A program made the translations under genes and the position numbers. A stretch of DNA of 63,093 nucleotides, counting the filler, from Globobulimina sp. (taxonomy: Eukaryota): NCBI GenBank assembly GCA_003354225.1. It is 51 parts of 51 records of this genome, joined end to end, with 100 filler letters (N's around TTAATTAATTAA, not from the genome) between each part and the next. Parts side by side here need not be neighbours in the genome. Positions count along the whole stretch, not along the records: positions 52,052 to 53,189 come from PIVH01022575.1; 50 more parts are not named here. One strand, 5' to 3'. This document shows, piece after piece, positions 13,404 to 54,527 of the stretch (position 1 is the stretch's first letter; each line of letters begins with the position of its first letter). The notes beneath the pieces are model-generated. The model saw only the letters and a program-made list of their open reading frames with translations. It did not search any database and was not told the origin of the DNA.

Positions 13404-13641
13404 TTATTTAATTTAATTTCCATTTTTCCGGCCCTGGCCGGGTTAATTTTCCATTTATTTAATTATTTTCTTTTTTCTATTTTTGAGTAGTTCTTATTTC
13501 TTAGTGTGAACTTACTGTTTTTGACTAATTAATTTACAAANNNNNNNNNNNNNNNNNNNNNNNNNNNNNNNNNNNNNNNNNNNNTTAATTAATTAANNNN
13601 NNNNNNNNNNNNNNNNNNNNNNNNNNNNNNNNNNNNNNNNA

Positions 13642-14004
13642 GATGCAATGAAAGAAGCTGTACTACTGGGAAAAGCTCATATCAATAAAGAAGCATGTTT
13701 AGCACATAAGGGAAGAGGATTTAATGGTATTTCCCGAGGTAAAGACTTTAAAGGTATTTATAAGTCACCAAATAGTAAACATGAATTCGCCACTCCTTTA
13801 AAGGATGAGGTGTTCAACAGAGAGATATGTAATTTATGTATCACCGAATGTCCCATAGGTGAATCCGCTATTGTATTTGATGGTAGGAATAGTGCGGGAA
13901 ATATGCTGCCAAAAGTACTTACTGGATGCACCGGCTGCGGTGTTTGTGTTATGGTTTGTCCCACAGATAAACCCAGTATCATTGTTGAACCCTTTATATC
14001 ATAG
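13642..14004 (+). CDS. nosG: Bacterial 4Fe-4S ferredoxin-type protein, NosG/NapG/MauM family, C-terminal part
   Basis: CLAHKGRGFNGISRGKDFKG, CNLCITECP, CTGCGVCVMVCP; the GFxGxxRGxDFKG insert resembles clade II NosG as I recall it. Confidence 0.65.
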   Translation, partial: DAMKEAVLLGKAHINKEACLAHKGRGFNGISRGKDFKGIYKSPNSKHEFATPLKDEVFNREICNLCITECPIGESAIVFDGRNSAGNMLPKVLTGCTGCGVCVMVCPTDKPSIIVEPFIS

Positions 14005-14009
14005 TTATT

Positions 14010-14780
14010 ATGTTCGATTTTATAAAATCCGGTAAGAATAAACCTCCCCTTACACCGAAGCATATAGCTGACATGCCTCACACTGCATTGGGTATGGATT
14101 ATAAAAAATGGTGTGATTCACAGAAATCATCTCATAAATTGAGAAATATCAGGTGGACTGTACTAATTATAATGAATTTATTTTTTGTAGTTTCGTTTGT
14201 GTTTGATATCGCCATTCTAAAAGGATCATTAAGCGGATCAAAGTTAATTGGATTTTATTTTATGGAGCCATTTAATGCATTACAGGTATTGGCAATATCT
14301 TCTACTACGGGTTACATATCCATGCTTACTTTAAACTTTTGGATTGGGTTATTGACTATAATTTTGTTTTGGTTCATATTGGGTGGTCGCACATATTGTT
14401 CATGGTTGTGCCCATATCATTTATTAGCAGAATTCGCTGAATATCTTCATAACTACTTTGTTGAGAAGGGAAAAATTAAAGAACATATTTTTCAGAGATC
14501 ACTTCGATACGTATTTTGGTTTGGGTTCTTAATACTTGCGTTTATTACGCAAAACCTTGTCTTCGAAAATTTGAACATGGTAGGAATAGTTTCTCGTGCA
14601 ATGATATACGGACCTGGACTAGTGTTACTATGGGTAATAGCAGTATTAATATTTGAAGTTGTTTATAGTAAGCGTTTTTGGTGCAGATATGTATGCCCCA
14701 TAGGAACTACATGGGGTATGGTTGGGAAATTCTCACCTTTATCGATAAAATTTGAGTTTAGTAACTGTGCATATTGCCGC
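14010..14780 (+). CDS. nosH: Bacterial membrane Fe-S quinol dehydrogenase subunit, NosH/NapH/MauN family
   Basis: GGRTYCSWLCPYHLLAE, SRAMIYGPGL, RFWCRYVCPIG; starts 5 bp after the upstream stop; family is secure, nos versus nap less so. Confidence 0.7.
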
Positions 14781-22320: not shown

Positions 22321-23088
22321 GTATATTTTCAAATGAATATTTTTTGTATTGATTGTATCCCATTTATTTGAAATAGCATTCATTAAATCATTCATTCTAT
22401 ACGGACTATTAACCCAACCAATAATTGCAGATCTTCGTTGGTTAATATTATTTATTGATAAATTTTTCTTATAAACCGGAGTATAAATCATAACACCTGC
22501 TTGTAGAACAGTTGTACCTTCTTGCTCAAGAACAACTTTTGTGGTCATTGCAGGAACATTAAAATCGCGGGAATGTATCATTGCTTTTTGCCTCATGGGC
22601 TCGGTGTAAGTGTCGTATCCAAAGGCTTTGGCATAACTCTGTTTAAATGGTTCCAAAAATTGGAGTGAAGTATACAATTCTCGTTCGCCAACTGGTCGAA
22701 TAGAGTAGTTATTGTATCCATTTAATTGCATGTGTATTACATGCTCCTTTAATTTTGTTTTAGGAACAATGTAATTATACCCAACAACCTGAAATCCAGG
22801 ATTATTGAAGACAATTTGACTGTTTTGAATAAAAAATGCAAAATCATCCCTTGTTACGGTATCAGAGACAGTTATGAATGATGCACAATTTTGCAAAAGT
22901 TGTACATGTGTATTTAGTCGTGTTTGTATCCTAGATTTTATATCATTACAAAACATTGAAAGTTCAGCTTTTTTGGCTATAACTATATGCCTACGTGTAT
23001 GATAAGTTGCCACCCCAGTTAATATAAAGCATCCAATAAGTATACAAAAAGTAATTAACAGATTTTTTGATTTTATATTAATTCTCAT
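22321..23088 (-). CDS. Bacterial CHASE-domain sensor (N-terminus of a histidine kinase or cyclase)
   Basis: TM helix, then PGFQVVGY...YSIRPVGERELYT...FLEPF...AFGYDTYTEPMRQKAM..SRD...GWVNSPYRMNDLM. Confidence 0.88.
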
Positions 23089-23306
23089 GTCCCCATTTCC
23101 TTTCAATAATTGTAATATTCTAAACAATACAATCCGCTATTCCAAATGTAACGTTTTTTTTGTAAAATTAGAAATCGTCATCAAGTTGCTTAACAAATCA
23201 CAGTGGTATTTCAAATGGTTACAAGCTTTTTTCTAATTCAATGTGCAGGTAAATGATTTGTTAAAAGGCTTTATGTTTTTTTCATGAACCTAGGATCGAA
23301 CAAATC

Positions 23307-23459
23307 TTATTCAGATAGTTTAGCCTGAAATCCCCAACCACCAAAATTTTCAGCAACTAATACCAGCAATTCATTGTCACCCTCTTTTAAGTTTAAATAA
23401 ACTGCATCATTATAGTTAATCCATCCACCAAATGCCATATTCCGACTCCTAAAAACATT
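23307..23459 (-). CDS. C-terminus of a bacterial (Bacteroidota-like) hypothetical protein
   Basis: Hand translation NVFRSRNMAFGGWINYNDAVYLNLKEGDNELLVLVAENFGGWGFQAKLSE*. Confidence 0.6.
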   Translation of the reverse strand, partial: NVFRSRNMAFGGWINYNDAVYLNLKEGDNELLVLVAENFGGWGFQAKLSE

Positions 23460-32232: not shown

Positions 32233-33371
32233 ATTTATATTGTTGTTTTTTGCGTATTTCCTGCTTAGTCCTCCGCAGTAAATACGGCTTCACTGTCTTT
32301 TTTATTAAGTTCAATAGCCGGTTACTTAGCTGCTTCTGGAACAACGAGGCGTGTTTCAACCGCCCCGCATTTATATGCACTTTGAATTCTTTATTGAACG
32401 CACGGTATGAACCAAATAAGTGACCCTCAGAAATGAAATCAAATAACGACCATAACTCTGACAATTCATTTTGCAAAAAAGTGCCAGATAATATAATTTT
32501 ATTTGAATTATTCACTGGAATCTGTCGAACTGCTTTGGAGGTCCCAATTAAGTGGTTTTTAATTTTATGCCCTTCGTCCAATATCATATAATCCCACTTT
32601 TTGCCCTCTCGGATGACTTTATTATTGCGTACTTTTTGGGTTAATGACTGTATGTCCATTGCTGCATAATTTTTCTGTACCATGCCGTAGGACGTTATTA
32701 GTATACCGCCGCGTTTTGCGATTGAGGCTAAGTTTTCGGCTCTCCTTTTTTTGGTGATGGAGGAGTGATATTTTTTCACTTTATACCCAGCTATTTTACA
32801 CCAGACATTTAACTCTTTGATCCAATGCGACATGACGGAGACTGGCAGCACCAATAAACATCGGGTTGCTAAGCCACTGAGGTAGGCGCCATGCAAAAAA
32901 GCGCAGATTTGTACAGTTTTACCTTAACATTTTTACAAAAAGTTTTTTTGCTGATAAAAGCAGAGTACACTTACCTAAACCCATGTCGTCGCCTAAAATG
33001 CCACCACAAGGCGATTGGTATAGCTTCCAAAGCCATACTAAAGATTCTCTTTGATAGTCATATAGTTTGTCGAATATCTCAGCTGGTATTATATATTCTT
33101 GTTCTTCTTCATCGTACAATTCATCCTCGTCTATGTCTTCTTGCTTATTTGCTTCGAGATGGTAATTGTCTGTGACAATATTTTTATGCCACGGAGAATC
33201 ACCAATTTGTTCAAATGCTTCTTCGTTTGCCTCTAATTTTTTGTCGTAGCATAAATCTTGAATTTTTTCAATTTTATTTTTTAATTTGGGGAATTCTTTT
33301 GGCGCTACTTTTGATGCTGAAATATATGATTTTAAAGCGGGTAAATATTTTTTTTCATTTTGTAATGCTTT
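32233..33371 (-). CDS. ERCC6L: SNF2-family ATPase, ERCC6L/PICH-like (intron 32974-32923)
   Basis: TPR-like N-terminus, LYDYQ, GGILGDDMGLG|KT, WDYMILDEGHKIKN, LSGTFLQNEL.ELWSLFDF, PYLLRRTK; a 52-bp GTAAG..AG intron restores Walker A. Confidence 0.8.
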
Positions 33372-52051: not shown

Positions 52052-53189
52052 AAAATGCCAGAGGAAGCAAAGAAAAAGAAATTGGAAGATGCAAAAATGT
52101 TTGAGTATTTTTCAAAGTTGGGGATTAAACAAGAATTGATGAGAGAGTGTGAATGGAAATATGTTAGAAGATCTGACAGTTCAATAAGAAACTTTCTCAA
52201 TGAAAAACTTGGAATGCCACTGTCTTATCACACAAGACTCTCACACTTGGATGTTCTGGATAAAATTGCTTCAGGCAAACTTTTTGGTCTGGCTCGTGTC
52301 TCTCTACATGTTCCAGATCATCTGTATGAAAAGTTTAAAGAATTTTGTCCGATTTTCCAGAACAGAATCGTCACAAGAGAAGATCTTTCACCATATGCTC
52401 TGAAAATTGCAGAAGCAAATGATTTGTTGAAGCGGGGACAAAGAAGTTTGGTTAGTGTGATGAAAGCTGACAAAATTGTTTTGGTAACACCACTGATACA
52501 ATGGTACATGCGACATGGATTGGTAATCAGTGAAGTTCATGAAGTTGTGCAGTTCAAACCCGCAAAGTTGTTTACCAAATTCACTGAAGGTGTTACAAAG
52601 CATCGAAAGTTGGCTGATGAAGATGCCAGTAAAAAGCAACTGGGAAATCTGCATAAATTAACAGGAAACGCTGCCTATGGTACAAATTTCCCATGTGATA
52701 TATAGTTTGGTATTGTTTTCATTTTCAGGAAAAACATTGGAGAAACGATCTGAATTCACAAACATCAAGTTTGAAAATGAAGAGACTGTTTCAAAAATCA
52801 TAAATAAAAAAGAGTTTGTTGATCTGGATGAGTTAAATAACGATCTTTTTGAAGTGACCATGGCGAAACGATCCTATGTCGACTCTGTTCCTCGTATCAT
52901 TGGTGCAATGGTGTTGGGATATGCAAAGATGCGTCTATTGGAAATGTACTACGATTTTTTGGACAAATACTTTGACCGATCAACATGGGAACTTGTTTGT
53001 GCTGACACTGACAGTCTTTGTAAGTTACTGGTACAAAATCAATGTCACAAATATAACATGACACTTTACAGACATGAGCATAGCAGCCAGCAACTTGGAA
53101 GATTTTGAAAAACTCGTAAAGCCTGACATGTTGGATGAATACAAATTCAGAGTGGCGGTGAGCAATAACAAAGAAGCGATGGAAGCCGG
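52052..53189 (+). mobile_element. Polinton/Maverick-type (protein-primed family) DNA polymerase B with two introns (52680-52728, 53020-53071)
   Basis: KLTGNAAYG|KT (motif B), IG..VL.YAKMRLLE.YYDFL, DTDSL|YM (motif C); both GT..AG introns restore the frame. Confidence 0.85.
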
Positions 53190-53325
53190 NNNNNNNNNNN
53201 NNNNNNNNNNNNNNNNNNNNNNNNNNNNNNNNNTTAATTAATTAANNNNNNNNNNNNNNNNNNNNNNNNNNNNNNNNNNNNNNNNNNNNATTGTACATTA
53301 CATTACATTACAATCAATCAATAAA

Positions 53326-54426
53326 TCAATCATCCTCATCCTCATCATGTTTTTCCATATGCTTTTTATGTGCAGTTTTATCATAAAACAATTTCACACA
53401 TTGCTCACATTCATATTTGGCATATTTACGATCATTATGATAACTCACCAAATGATATTTTATCGACTCCGCCCTTGATTTCGATGAATATCTCTTATCA
53501 CATCCTTTATAAAAACATATTCCATTTTTAATTGCTTCCTTTATCGGATCGACCGGTTTATGTCCGACTTTTTTATGTTTTAAATACCGTCCCTTTTCAT
53601 AAAATCTTTTCCCACATACTCCACATTCAAACCGTGTGTATTTAATATCACTATGAATTCCAACCATATGCGATTTCAAACTGGTAAATGACCCAAACCG
53701 CGTTCCACAATACGAACAAATATGATTCTTCTGTTTCAAATGGACGGTGATGACATGTTGTCTCATCGATGATTTTTGCGCAAATCTCTTTTTACACCGA
53801 TTACATTTGAATGGTTTCTTGCCGTCGTGTACTCTCTGATGGTTTTCTAATGTTATTTTCTCGTAAAACTCTTTTGGACATAATTTGCATTTATAATCTC
53901 TAATTTTTTCGTGATCTCTGCGAATATGTTTCTTTAAGCCATAGTTGGTCGCATATCGCATACTGTTTGCAACGGGACATTTATTGCATAAATACGGCTT
54001 ATCCACTTTGTGAATGTCATTCATATGTTTTCTGTGCTTGATATATGTGGTAAATGTATCACTGCACATCGTGCATTGTAGAGGCTCGATGAATGTCTTT
54101 TTTTTATATTTATAATATTTTCGCCAATTCGTTTTACGTTTTTTTTTCTTTGCTGGTTTCTGTGTTTTTAGGTCTAATTTTTTAGTATTATTTGCTGATA
54201 AATTCGCAGATTGATTGTTAAATAATGTATTGTATAAATTCAAAATGTTATTATTATTCTTTTGAATCTTCTCTTTTGATCCGGATTGCGATGAACTGTG
54301 AGGTTCGGATTGTGTTTGTTTTGCCGTTGAATTATTATTTGTGGATTTGGGACATTCGGATTCTGATTCATTTGATGATAAATAGTATGATGAAGAGGAT
54401 GATAATGAAATATATGAGGAATCGGA
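53326..54426 (-). CDS. Multi-C2H2 zinc-finger protein
   Basis: About 8 CxxC...HxxxH units with GKKPFKC-type linkers. Confidence 0.92.
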   Translation of the reverse strand, partial: SDSSYISLSSSSSYYLSSNESESECPKSTNNNSTAKQTQSEPHSSSQSGSKEKIQKNNNNILNLYNTLFNNQSANLSANNTKKLDLKTQKPAKKKKRKTNWRKYYKYKKKTFIEPLQCTMCSDTFTTYIKHRKHMNDIHKVDKPYLCNKCPVANSMRYATNYGLKKHIRRDHEKIRDYKCKLCPKEFYEKITLENHQRVHDGKKPFKCNRCKKRFAQKSSMRQHVITVHLKQKNHICSYCGTRFGSFTSLKSHMVGIHSDIKYTRFECGVCGKRFYEKGRYLKHKKVGHKPVDPIKEAIKNGICFYKGCDKRYSSKSRAESIKYHLVSYHNDRKYAKYECEQCVKLFYDKTAHKKHMEKHDEDEDD

Positions 54427-54527
54427 TNNNNNNNNNNNNNNNNNNNNNNNNNNNNNNNNNNNNNNNNNNNNTTAATTAATTAANNNNNNNNNNNNNNNNN
54501 NNNNNNNNNNNNNNNNNNNNNNNNNNN

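What the first reader, a model, noticed from the sequence alone, without database searches (positions are those of the whole stretch)
52052..53189. Polinton-type DNA polymerase B with spliceosomal introns inside catalytic motifs B and C
Seen: a 49-bp intron (52680-52728) splits KLTGNAAYG|KT and a 52-bp intron (53020-53071) splits DTDSL|YM; both are GT..CAG, phase 1, and restore one stop-free frame. Established: Polinton/Maverick and adintovirus pPolB genes are mostly intronless. Inference: an intron-colonised, nucleus-transcribed Polinton-like lineage or a domesticated polymerase. The roughly 50-nt introns with a TTTTCAG acceptor could indicate a nematode-like or other small-animal host rather than the protist.
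Basis: partly seen in the sequence, partly recalled or inferred. Interest (0 to 1): 0.7.

Follow-up and report, generated by a model that had tools for sequence, protein, structure and literature searches.

The report
Intron-split Polinton-type DNA polymerase fragment
A short stand-alone contig carries part of the self-replication polymerase of a virus-like jumping gene (Polinton/Maverick type), cut by two tiny introns in its catalytic motifs, which is unusual for published elements but turns out to be fairly common among unannotated database relatives.

Summary
The window is a chain of 51 unlinked ~1.14-kb contigs, and the finding is one whole contig, so its window "flanks" are not genomic context. 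Two GT...CAG, phase-1 insertions (52680-52728, 49 nt; 53020-53071, 52 nt) join three frames into 345 stop-free codons. In relatives the exons abut exactly: 70 of 83 at junction 1, and one alignment column between exons at both junctions.

The protein belongs to a large eukaryotic family of phi29-like protein-primed B polymerases with a Vsr-like insert. Relatives on long contigs sit in TIR-bounded elements of 15-18 kb with an rve-chromo integrase, an A32-type ATPase, an adenain-type protease and a double-jelly-roll capsid protein. This copy's own context is unknown.

Introns are not unique to it. Three relatives have DNA-verified introns a few codons upstream in motif B. 34 of 153 database relatives stop matching inside motif B, one of them at our site. 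None of 75 is interrupted at our motif-C site. Splicing could not be tested because no RNA run is listed. The source organism is unresolved. I file it as a new member of a known kind, of moderate interest.

The parts
52052..52679 (+). Exon 1, cut at its 5' end by the contig end. It runs from the last motif of the Vsr-like nuclease insert (ECEW, 52145-52156), through the region between that insert and the fingers, to the first part of motif B (KLTGNAAY at 52655-52678, plus the first base of the split Gly codon at 52679).
   Evidence: Frame 0 is open for 209 codons. phmmer finds 1848 relatives at E <= 1e-3. It is 58-60% identical to P0001 and P0153. 27 of the 31 columns that are >=85% conserved in the family are kept across all three exons.
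52680..52728 (+). Intron 1: 49 nt, phase 1, GTACAA...TTTTCAG, 28.6% GC. It splits the Gly codon of motif B (YG|KT).
   Evidence: It has GT/AG ends, and read-through stops after 8 codons. 70 of 83 relatives have exactly one residue between the projected exon ends. One alignment column separates exon 1 from exon 2. 68 of 76 metagenome relatives have no extra DNA at this site.
52729..53019 (+). Exon 2: the end of motif B (G-KT, 52729-52736), the region between the fingers and the palm, and motif C (DTDS at 53004-53015, L at 53016-53018, first base of the split Tyr codon at 53019).
   Evidence: Frame 1 is open. A profile of 5 relatives matches the 96-aa exon translation at E 1e-20. blastp finds this exon in 83 of 152 relatives.
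53020..53071 (+). Intron 2: 52 nt, phase 1, consensus donor GTAAGT, acceptor TTTACAG, 30.8% GC. It splits the Tyr codon just after motif C (DTDSL|Y).
   Evidence: Sequence and frames are. The profile changes frame exactly here. One alignment column separates exon 2 from exon 3. All 75 metagenome relatives that reach this site read through it in one frame, and the other 5 contigs end at or before it.
53072..53189 (+). Exon 3, cut at its 3' end by the contig end. It carries the conserved post-motif-C stretch (...LED...VKPDMLDEY). A possible third donor, GTGAGC, lies at 53158-53163, after ...KFRVA.
   Evidence: Frame 2 matches the family profile, and tblastn links 53074-53142 to relatives. The third donor is inference only: relatives have W-F-P about 6 residues after the EY (listing) and this contig does not. 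A contig from run X1 diverges from the window contig after 53147.

Best explanation
The contig is a fragment of the polymerase domain of a phi29-like, protein-primed family-B DNA polymerase (pPolB). This is the kind encoded by Polinton/Maverick (adintovirus-like) elements, and it belongs to the subclass with a Vsr-type nuclease insert. The gene is interrupted by two genuine U2-type (GT-AG) spliceosomal introns of 49 and 52 nt. One lies inside motif B (the nucleotide-binding fingers helix) and the other just after the catalytic DTD of motif C.

Proposed mechanism. The gene is transcribed in the nucleus. The spliceosome removes both introns and rebuilds KLTGNAAYG-KT and DTDSL-Y. Only the spliced mRNA can give an active enzyme, because an unspliced message stops 8 codons into intron 1, before motif C. 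The enzyme would then replicate a linear, TIR-ended element by protein priming, as in other Polintons.

Shown here: the exon/intron anatomy, the exact restoration of homology, retention of conserved residues, family membership, the fold of a full-length relative, and the Polinton gene set and TIRs around relatives.

Inferred: actual splicing, enzyme activity, and that this copy sits in (or derives from) a Polinton. The copy belongs to a small lineage (with P0001 and P0153) whose members all look interrupted. Introns seem to have entered this polymerase family repeatedly, often in or near motif B.
For: Anatomy and junctions: 70 of 83; one column per split codon; 27 of 31 conserved columns kept, including K, L, G and N of motif B.

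The introns are richer in AT than the exons (0.29 and 0.31 GC against 0.38). They are the same size as a Pfam-validated 52-nt intron in a host-type SNF2 gene of the window, where the profile runs 1-28 and then 30-227 across the junction.

There is no in-frame stop in 345 spliced codons. Decaying relatives, by contrast, carry scattered TAA/TAG/TGA stops and frameshifts (34 of 80 loci are not a single open frame).

Family identity: PF03175 scores above its cut-off in 5 of 16 full-length relatives. ExoI-III and motifs A, B and C are conserved in the 57-sequence alignment. The AlphaFold model of relative P0002 has mean pLDDT 87.3, and its nine best PDB matches are all phi29 DNA polymerase (E 6e-10 to 1e-6; other B-family polymerases score E >= 6e-4). 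The profile of 9 relatives hits Vsr endonucleases 1vsr, 1cw0 and 1odg at E about 0.005.

Polinton context of relatives: flanks of 10 loci were scanned. An rve+chromodomain integrase is present in 5 (L001, L028, L031, L046, L060), a Pox_A32-type ATPase in 3 (L001, L031, L017), and Peptidase_C5 in L060. The conserved ~455-aa neighbour folds as a double jelly-roll capsid protein: 111 BFVD matches at E <= 1e-3, including virophage, adintovirus, MELD-virus and giant-virus capsid proteins. Terminal inverted repeats of 67-108 nt are present in 3 of 5 long loci.

Introns in relatives: L073 (KL|, 94 nt, GTAAGT...CAG) and L070 and L076 (KLL G|, about 200 nt). P0001 and P0153 both end at ...TPLIKW and form a clade with the window contig at SH-aLRT 99.
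Against: No transcript evidence exists. No RNA run is listed, and the only contigs laid on the stretch keep both introns, in a run whose library type is not on record.

The three exons do not match PF03175 themselves. Membership rests on full-length relatives and on motifs B and C.

The copy's own surroundings are unknown, and none of the other 50 contigs carries a Polinton gene.

4 of the 31 conserved columns differ, one of them a Met that is invariant in the 57 relatives.

Intron 1 has a weak donor (GTACAA).

A contig of run X1 continues differently after 53147, so the 3' end of the contig may be a variant or a chimaeric join.

Its codon usage fits the other contigs only moderately (RSCU r 0.56, rank 5 of 33).
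Confidence: 0.72

Rival explanations
1. The contig does not belong to the organism that supplies most of the window. It comes from another eukaryote in the sample, such as a small marine animal, prey or a contaminant, and the introns reflect that genome. This concerns origin only and is compatible with the best explanation.
For: The window is a bag of unlinked contigs. 13 of the other 50 contigs are a single open frame of >=330 codons, so the main genome looks intron-poor, whereas this contig has 2 introns, perhaps 3, in 1.1 kb. Only one host intron could be validated. Codon-usage fit is in the lower range (rank 5 of 33). Where taxa are recorded, the family's atlas clusters are mainly Cnidaria and Echinodermata. 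Jeong et al. report the Vsr-bearing pPolB2 subgroup from a marine nematode and molluscs (PMC10748475, passages and section 8). A marine metagenome run holds a 169-nt piece with 4 differences.
Against: The validated host intron is 52 nt, phase 1, GTAAGT...AG, which is the same size class. The contig's GC (0.372) and GC3 (0.364) lie inside the range of the other contigs. Run X1, probably the source sample, holds 77% of its sampled words. Polintons move between hosts, so the taxa of relatives are weak evidence.
Confidence: 0.3
2. It is a domesticated, host-maintained polymerase gene that is no longer part of a mobile element. It is inherited vertically and has gained ordinary host introns over time.
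For: The frame is intact and 27 of 31 conserved columns are kept. There are several introns. The nearest relatives, only 58-60% identical, also look interrupted, as expected for old, vertically inherited orthologues. No Polinton capsid, integrase or ATPase gene lies on any other contig of the window, but that is only about 57 kb of an unknown genome.
Against: There is no synteny, copy-number or selection evidence at all. Every relative whose context could be read and named lies in a mobile or viral element. The alternative continuation after 53147 in run X1 hints at more than one copy or variant. A second, near-identical but non-synonymously different piece exists in a marine metagenome.
Confidence: 0.12
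3. It is a decaying pseudogene in which two short insertions merely look like introns.
For: Most endogenous Mavericks are degraded; PMC8097293 (passage read) gives 96% for vertebrates. 34 of 80 metagenome relatives have stops, frameshifts or gaps. Intron 1 has a poor donor hexamer. One family-invariant Met is replaced.
Against: Both insertions begin with GT and end with CAG at exactly the bases that restore the alignment, with no residue gained or lost. For a random insertion, GT at the start and AG at the end has a chance of about 1 in 256 each (my arithmetic, ignoring small sliding freedom). Both are about 50 nt, like a validated host intron, and are richer in AT than the exons. There are no other stops or frameshifts in 345 codons, unlike the decayed relatives.
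Confidence: 0.07

Closest known systems
Polinton pPolB2 with a VSR nuclease insertion (marine nematode Trissonchulus latispiculum and mollusc Polintons; Jeong et al. 2023, PMC10748475: abstract, passages and section 8 read)
   Same: Both are protein-primed B polymerases of Polintons with a Vsr-like nuclease domain inserted ahead of the fingers. Our family profile hits Vsr structures, and the contig keeps the last motif of the insert (ECEW). Relatives are linked to an rve integrase, the same criterion that paper used.
   Different: The paper does not mention spliceosomal introns in the polymerase: of its 2 occurrences of 'intron', the one shown concerns group I introns and the other was not displayed. 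It has 0 occurrences of 'zinc finger', whereas 7 of 16 relatives scanned here list PF00096 C2H2 fingers at E <= 0.01, 4 of them above the cut-off, mostly near the N-terminus. I could not compare directly with their sequences, so identity with 'pPolB2' rests on the description and was not tested.
Canonical Maverick/Polinton and adintovirus pPolB genes
   Same: They share the enzyme class, the element architecture around relatives (pPolB, rve integrase, A32-type ATPase, adenain-type protease, double-jelly-roll capsid protein, TIRs) and the phi29-like fold.
   Different: Published intact elements are described as having intronless core genes: PMC8097293 (which also cites Kapitonov and Jurka 2006 for this; I could not read that paper) and bioRxiv 10.1101/2022.07.12.499685 (passages read). 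This copy has two introns in 1.1 kb.
Introner-colonised eupolintoviral elements of dinoflagellates (Gozashti et al. 2025, PMC12166617: abstract and passages read)
   Same: These are Polinton-like elements that carry spliceosomal-type introns. About 25% of the viral elements contain introners, including full-length elements with a pPolB_2 gene.
   Different: Introners are multi-copy transposon-derived introns. The two introns here have no other copy in the window (a test over 63 kb only) and are ordinary short introns. The passages I read did not say whether the dinoflagellate introners lie inside polymerase coding sequence.
Bacteriophage phi29 DNA polymerase (PDB 2ex3, 1xhx, 2pzs, 2pyj, 2py5)
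   Same: It is the best structural match to the full-length relative P0002: the nine top hits, with target-normalised TM 0.52-0.66. Motifs B (K...N.xYG) and C (DTD) are shared.
   Different: The relatives are about twice as long. They have an N-terminal extension (often with C2H2 fingers) and the Vsr-like insert, sequence identity is 9-12%, and the genes are eukaryotic with introns.

Membership tests
Protein-primed family-B DNA polymerase (Pfam PF03175 DNA_pol_B_2; phi29/adenovirus/Polinton type) | A significant match to PF03175 | tested here: inconclusive
   The three exon translations give no PF03175 hit. 5 of 16 full-length relatives score above the 25.8-bit cut-off, and the hits cover the N-terminal exonuclease-to-motif-A part of the protein, which lies outside this contig. 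Membership of the contig is by transitivity through E <= 1e-30 homology.
Protein-primed family-B DNA polymerase (Pfam PF03175 DNA_pol_B_2; phi29/adenovirus/Polinton type) | Polymerase motif B (K...N[S/A]xYG) and motif C (DTD) intact | tested here: met
   After splicing the contig reads KLTGNAAYG-KT and DTDSL-Y. The family-conserved K, L, G and N of motif B are kept. The motif names come from general knowledge of B-family polymerases.
Protein-primed family-B DNA polymerase (Pfam PF03175 DNA_pol_B_2; phi29/adenovirus/Polinton type) | phi29-like fold rather than an RNA/DNA-primed B-polymerase fold | tested here: met
   This was tested on relative P0002, not on the contig itself. The model has pLDDT 87.3. 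Its nine best PDB matches are all phi29 polymerase, E 6e-10 to 1e-6, while other B-family polymerases score E >= 6e-4.
Protein-primed family-B DNA polymerase (Pfam PF03175 DNA_pol_B_2; phi29/adenovirus/Polinton type) | 3'-5' exonuclease motifs ExoI-III and motif A | not testable with these tools
   They lie upstream of the contig's 5' end. They are conserved in the 57 relatives and present in the closest relative P0001 (sequence).
Polinton/Maverick (adintovirus-like) element | The polymerase is linked to an rve-type integrase | not testable with these tools
For relatives, an rve+chromodomain integrase is present in 5 of the 10 loci whose flanks were scanned.
Polinton/Maverick (adintovirus-like) element | Double jelly-roll major capsid protein, packaging ATPase and adenain-type protease | not testable with these tools
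   For this copy these are unknown. For relatives, the capsid fold is shown, Pox_A32/IVa2 matches occur in L001, L031 and L017, and Peptidase_C5 occurs in L060.
Polinton/Maverick (adintovirus-like) element | Terminal inverted repeats bounding a 15-20 kb element | not testable with these tools
   For this copy this is unknown. For relatives, TIRs of 67-108 nt lie at or near the contig ends in 3 of 5 long loci (L037, L046, L060).
pPolB2 subgroup with VSR insertion (Jeong et al. 2023) | A Vsr-type nuclease domain inserted in the polymerase | tested here: inconclusive
   The family profile hits Vsr structures at E 0.0046-0.0066. Pfam Vsr on P0005 scores 20.5 bits, below the 27-bit cut-off. The contig holds only the last conserved motif of the insert (ECEW). 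No direct comparison with the published sequences was possible.
U2-type spliceosomal intron | GT...AG boundaries whose removal restores frame and homology exactly | tested here: met
U2-type spliceosomal intron | Removal from RNA in vivo | not testable with these tools
   No RNA holder is listed. The contigs laid on the stretch retain both introns, but the run's library type is not on record.
Introner (transposon-derived intron) | Many similar copies elsewhere in the genome | tested here: inconclusive
   There is no second copy of either intron in the 63-kb window (best other match 12 nt), but the genome is not available.

The most novel reading that the evidence does not exclude
Motif B of this Vsr-bearing Polinton polymerase family is a recurrent, possibly ancient, intron site. 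At least four break positions within about 8 codons (after KL(x), KLxG, GN(S) and YG) are spread over the family tree, and this contig represents a lineage with further introns (after motif C, and in its nearest relatives after ...PLIKW). If so, a sizeable share of these 'virus-like transposons' depend on the host spliceosome to make their replicase. That would contradict the textbook picture of intronless core genes, and it would give a marker to tell long-resident nuclear lineages, or domesticated polymerases, from freely infecting ones.
Probability: 0.3. Interest if true: 0.55.

Novelty: new member of a known kind. Interest (0 to 1): 0.38.

Why it matters
Polinton/Maverick core genes are described as intronless in the papers I could read (PMC8097293; bioRxiv 10.1101/2022.07.12.499685). 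The published exception I found is introner insertions in dinoflagellate elements (PMC12166617).

This contig, the three DNA-verified relatives and the pile-up of truncated database proteins at motif B together suggest that spliceosomal introns in the replicase gene are more common than the literature implies. That bears on three things:
- Expression: the replicase would need nuclear transcription by host machinery and splicing.
- Detection: ORF-based pipelines cut these polymerases at motif B.
- Residence time: introns may indicate how long such elements have lived in their hosts.

For this single contig the consequence is modest. It is one more fragment of a known enzyme family in an unknown context.

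Tried and rejected
- Expression: no RNA holder is listed for the contig. Of the four runs laid, X1 keeps both introns (library type not on record), X2 covers only 169 nt, and X3 and X4 gave nothing. Splicing and copy number therefore stay untested.
- No whole genome is held, and earlier scan notes returned nothing.
- Pfam on the single exons gave nothing relevant. A PDB sequence search with exon 1 gave only chance-level hits.
- Searches for context of close relatives failed: genome contigs with P0001 found none, viral contigs with the family alignment found none, and metagenome contigs with exon 1 found none. The 57-sequence alignment was too divergent for the metagenome scan, so a 9-sequence alignment was used instead.
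- Cluster look-up gave no names or accessions for P0001 and P0002.
- ORF-based scans for further host introns are not above control: 3 candidates with true donor hexamers against 5 with a control hexamer that is 2.7 times more frequent. Only the SNF2 intron is validated.
- Introner idea: neither intron has a repeat in the window.
- The C2H2 zinc-finger contig next to the finding (53290-54427) is unrelated. Its only link is generic finger similarity to the N-termini of a few relatives.
- A variant genetic code in relative L053 is rejected: its in-frame stops are a mix of TAA, TAG and TGA aligned to unrelated residues.
- Taxonomy of the source organism from the atlas, using a CDC20-like contig, gave no resolution.
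- The 'breaks near motif B' label is not one clade (32 changes against a shuffled mean of 38.6).
- Papers not held: PMC1450207 (Kapitonov and Jurka 2006), PMC11426020 and PMC5898198. What I say about Kapitonov and Jurka is second-hand, through PMC8097293.
- No supplementary files were opened. The supplementary tables of PMC10748475 and PMC12166617 could hold intron or gene-structure data that I did not see.
Full report
**What the window is.** The 63,093-base window is not one locus. It is 51 separate contigs of 1138-1140 bp, sorted by length and joined by runs of N around a TTAATTAATTAA linker. The finding (52052-53189) is exactly one of these contigs. Its neighbours in the window are unrelated sequence, and no whole genome is held for the window. 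Everything about this copy therefore has to come from 1138 bases plus comparison with other data.

**The observation.** Translating the contig shows three open segments: frame 0 up to 52679, frame 1 for 52729-53019, and frame 2 from 53072. The two intervening pieces are 49 nt (GTACAA...TTTTCAG) and 52 nt (GTAAGT...TTTACAG). Both are phase 1. Removing both gives 345 codons without a stop, whereas the unspliced frame stops 8 codons into the first piece.

Homology fixes the junctions independently:
- Among 83 relatives hit by both exon 1 and exon 2, 70 have exactly one residue (the split Gly codon) between the projected exon ends.
- A profile of the region after motif C, built from 69 relatives, follows frame 1 to DTDSL and then frame 2 from MSIAAS...KPDMLDEYK.
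- Added as fragments to a 57-sequence alignment, the three exons occupy columns 2205-2517, 2519-2717 and 2719-2772, leaving one column for each split codon.

The introns are richer in AT than the exons (0.29 and 0.31 GC against 0.38).

**What the protein is.** The single exons match no Pfam family. Exon 1, however, finds 1848 cluster representatives at E <= 1e-3, 770 at <= 1e-10 and 27 at <= 1e-30, and full-length members are about 1100-1500 aa.
- Of 16 full-length relatives scanned, 5 pass the PF03175 (DNA_pol_B_2) cut-off. 7 list C2H2 zinc fingers (PF00096) at E <= 0.01, 4 of them above the cut-off and mostly near the N-terminus. One gives a weak Vsr hit.
- The 57-sequence alignment shows ExoI-III, motif A (DANALYL), a nuclease-like insert (...VDGF...FHGC..HGH.C...WEC.W), motif B (KL.GNS.YGKT) and motif C (MDTDS).
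- A profile of nine relatives hits the Vsr endonucleases 1vsr, 1cw0 and 1odg at E about 0.005.
- The AlphaFold model of relative P0002 is confident (pLDDT 87.3, pTM 0.86). Its nine best PDB matches are all phi29 DNA polymerase (E 6e-10 to 1e-6), well ahead of other B-family polymerases.

The contig starts at the last motif of the insert (RECEW) and covers motifs B and C. It keeps 27 of the 31 columns that are >=85% conserved in the family; the four differences include one otherwise invariant Met.

**Is the family Polinton-borne?** A metagenome scan with a nine-sequence alignment found 210 relatives, and 80 loci were kept. I scanned the flanks of 10 loci:
- an rve integrase with a C-terminal chromodomain lies beside the polymerase in 5 (L001, L028, L031, L046, L060);
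- a Pox_A32/IVa2-type ATPase is present in 3 (L001, L031, L017);
- an adenovirus-type protease is present in L060.

The conserved ~455-aa neighbour, folded from 8 sequences (pLDDT 68.5, pTM 0.73), matches double jelly-roll capsid proteins of virophages, adintovirus, MELD virus and giant viruses (111 matches at E <= 1e-3; best 9e-22 to a Cotesia bracovirus protein). Three of five long loci carry terminal inverted repeats of 67-108 nt at or near the contig ends, bounding about 15-18 kb.

So the family is the replicase of complete Polinton/adintovirus-like elements. By its Vsr insert it fits the 'pPolB2 with VSR' subgroup that Jeong et al. describe from a marine nematode and molluscs (PMC10748475). 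I could not compare directly with their sequences.

On a tree of the exon 1+2 region (85 rows), the window contig groups with P0065 and P0074 (SH-aLRT 95). Loci with proven Polinton context lie in several other deep branches. The context of this copy and of its own subclade is unknown.

**Are introns unusual here?** The passages I read say that intact vertebrate Mavericks have intronless ORFs (PMC8097293, which cites Kapitonov and Jurka 2006) and that nematode Maverick core genes are intronless while cargo genes have introns (bioRxiv 10.1101/2022.07.12.499685). The exception I found is introners in about 25% of dinoflagellate eupolintoviral elements (PMC12166617). Three full-text searches turned up no report of ordinary spliceosomal introns inside a Polinton polymerase gene.

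At DNA level, 46 of the 80 metagenome loci have the polymerase in a single open frame. Many of the other 34 show plain frameshifts or mixed in-frame stops, which indicates decay.
- Our motif-B site carries no extra DNA in 68 of 76 loci. Four more differ by 3-6 nt, and one is a projection artefact.
- Three loci do have GT...AG interruptions inside motif B, but a few codons upstream of ours: L073 after KL (94 nt, GTAAGT...CAG, phase 0), and L070 and L076 in the next Gly codon (about 200 nt, phase 1).
- Our motif-C site is read through in one frame in 75 of 80 loci, and the other five contigs end at or before it.

**A wider pattern in the protein database.** Among the 153 relatives hit by exon 1, C-termini pile up at motif B. 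Of the 79 proteins that end before +120 aa, 40 end at exon-1 coordinates 200-229, against 0-6 per 10-aa bin from 230 to 329. The drop upstream of motif B is partly a search bias. After correcting my pattern matches by hand, homology stops:
- after KL(x) in 8 proteins (5 of them continue with Val, as a GTN read-through would);
- after KLxG in 19;
- after GN(S) in 6;
- after YG in 1 (P0018), which is our intron-1 site.

These 34 of 153 look like ORF calls that ran into introns, but only L070, L073, L076 and the window contig are verified at DNA level. The label is scattered over the tree (32 changes against a shuffled mean of 38.6).

The two closest relatives, P0001 (58% identical) and P0153 (60%), come from different sources. 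Both end at ...TPLIKW, where our gene runs on, and they form a clade with the window contig (SH-aLRT 99). A stop straight after TGG is what a TG|GTAAGT donor would give on read-through, but that is inference because I could not see their DNA. On that tree the interrupted rows need four changes, and at least two are forced by well-supported branches.

**Which organism?** The other contigs carry ordinary eukaryotic genes in long open frames: a Na/H exchanger, CFAP65/hydin-like proteins, CDC20, SNF2, myosin TH1 and an Armc9 domain, plus a CHASE-domain and a Fer4_5 ORF of uncertain origin. There are also two tRNA genes.

One host-type gene has a validated intron. In the SNF2 contig, the upstream exon ends at Pfam profile position 28 and the downstream exon starts at position 30, across a 52-nt GTAAGT...AG phase-1 intron at 32923-32974 on the minus strand. 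The polymerase introns are therefore of the window's own size class, and a nematode-like host is not needed to explain them.

Several points keep the other-host idea alive:
- 13 of the other 50 contigs are a single open frame of >=330 codons, so two or three introns in 1.1 kb stands out.
- My generic intron scans are no better than a control.
- The codon-usage fit is only moderate (r 0.56, rank 5 of 33).
- The recorded taxa of relatives are mostly marine invertebrates.
- The atlas gave no taxonomic resolution for a host gene.

I leave the origin open, with about 0.3 for a different organism.

**Sequencing runs.** One run (X1, probably the source sample, library type not on record) holds 77% of the sampled words. 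Its two contigs keep both introns, and one of them continues differently after 53147, which hints at a second variant or copy. A marine metagenome run (X2) holds a 169-nt piece with four differences at 52202-52217. By my reading of the codons, all four change the amino acid. No RNA run is listed, so splicing is untested.

**Verdict.** The Polinton label is shown for the family but not for this copy. The host inference is not supported. The feature is less exceptional than assumed, because relatives with introns in or beside motif B are frequent in public data, though apparently undescribed. I rate it a new member of a known kind, with interest about 0.4. Most of that interest lies in the family-wide intron pattern at motif B rather than in this single contig.

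Noticed in passing
window 1-63093: The window is a chain of 51 unrelated contigs of 1138-1140 bp, sorted by length and joined by N runs around a TTAATTAATTAA linker. Adjacency in the window carries no biological meaning.
   Followed up: yes
proteins P0003-P0152 (relatives), motif B region: C-termini of database relatives pile up at motif B. 34 of 153 stop matching after KL(x), KLxG, GN(S) or YG, often with junk tails that begin with Val or come after a retained Gly, as intron read-through would give. P0018 breaks at the same site as window intron 1.
   Followed up: partly
P0001 and P0153 (closest relatives): Both come from different sources and end at the identical residue ...TPLIKW, which aligns with W151 of exon 1, where the window gene continues. 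This fits a lineage-specific intron at a third site. Their DNA could not be fetched.
   Followed up: partly
window 53148-53189: A contig of run X1 matches up to 53147 and then continues with different sequence. A possible third donor, GTGAGC, lies at 53158-53163, and the expected W-F-P motif is missing from the last 14 codons. The 3' end may be a variant junction or the start of another intron.
   Followed up: no
window 52202-52217: A marine-metagenome contig (run X2, 169 nt) differs at four clustered positions. All four are non-synonymous by my reading (E>K, G>A, M>I, P>S), in a poorly conserved linker.
   Followed up: no
relatives P0005, P0014, P0022, P0028, P0035, P0049, P0050; L060:4574-5362: Many family members carry C2H2 zinc fingers at the N-terminus of the polymerase or just upstream of it (7 of 16 scanned, 4 above the Pfam cut-off). 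PMC10748475 has no occurrence of 'zinc finger'.
   Followed up: no
L037:1-16771, L046:1-17959, L060:1-15888: These are apparently complete linear elements of about 15-18 kb in metagenomes. TIRs of 67-108 nt lie at or near the contig ends, and the elements carry pPolB, an rve-chromo integrase, a double jelly-roll capsid protein and, in L060, ATPase- and protease-like ORFs. Because the TIRs reach the contig ends, they could be free adintovirus-like genomes rather than integrated copies.
   Followed up: partly
L028:9516-10871 (-) and homologues (alignment A3): The best structural match of the capsid candidate is an uncharacterised protein of Cotesia sesamiae Mombasa bracovirus (E 9e-22, 25% identity). 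This would fit Maverick-derived sequence inside a bracovirus record.
   Followed up: no
window 32923-32974 (-): A host-type SNF2 gene has a 52-nt GTAAGT...TTAAG phase-1 intron, validated by Pfam profile continuity (positions 28 and 30). Its acceptor is an unusual AAG.
   Followed up: yes
window 13641-14780 and 22321-23459: ORFs with a 4Fe-4S Fer4_5 domain and a CHASE sensor domain could be bacterial contigs or transferred genes in an otherwise eukaryotic set. The assembly may be a mixture of organisms.
   Followed up: no
L053:10001-13847, L077, L071, L025: These polymerase copies carry several in-frame stops of all three kinds, plus frameshifts. That is ordinary decay and not a variant genetic code.
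   Followed up: yes
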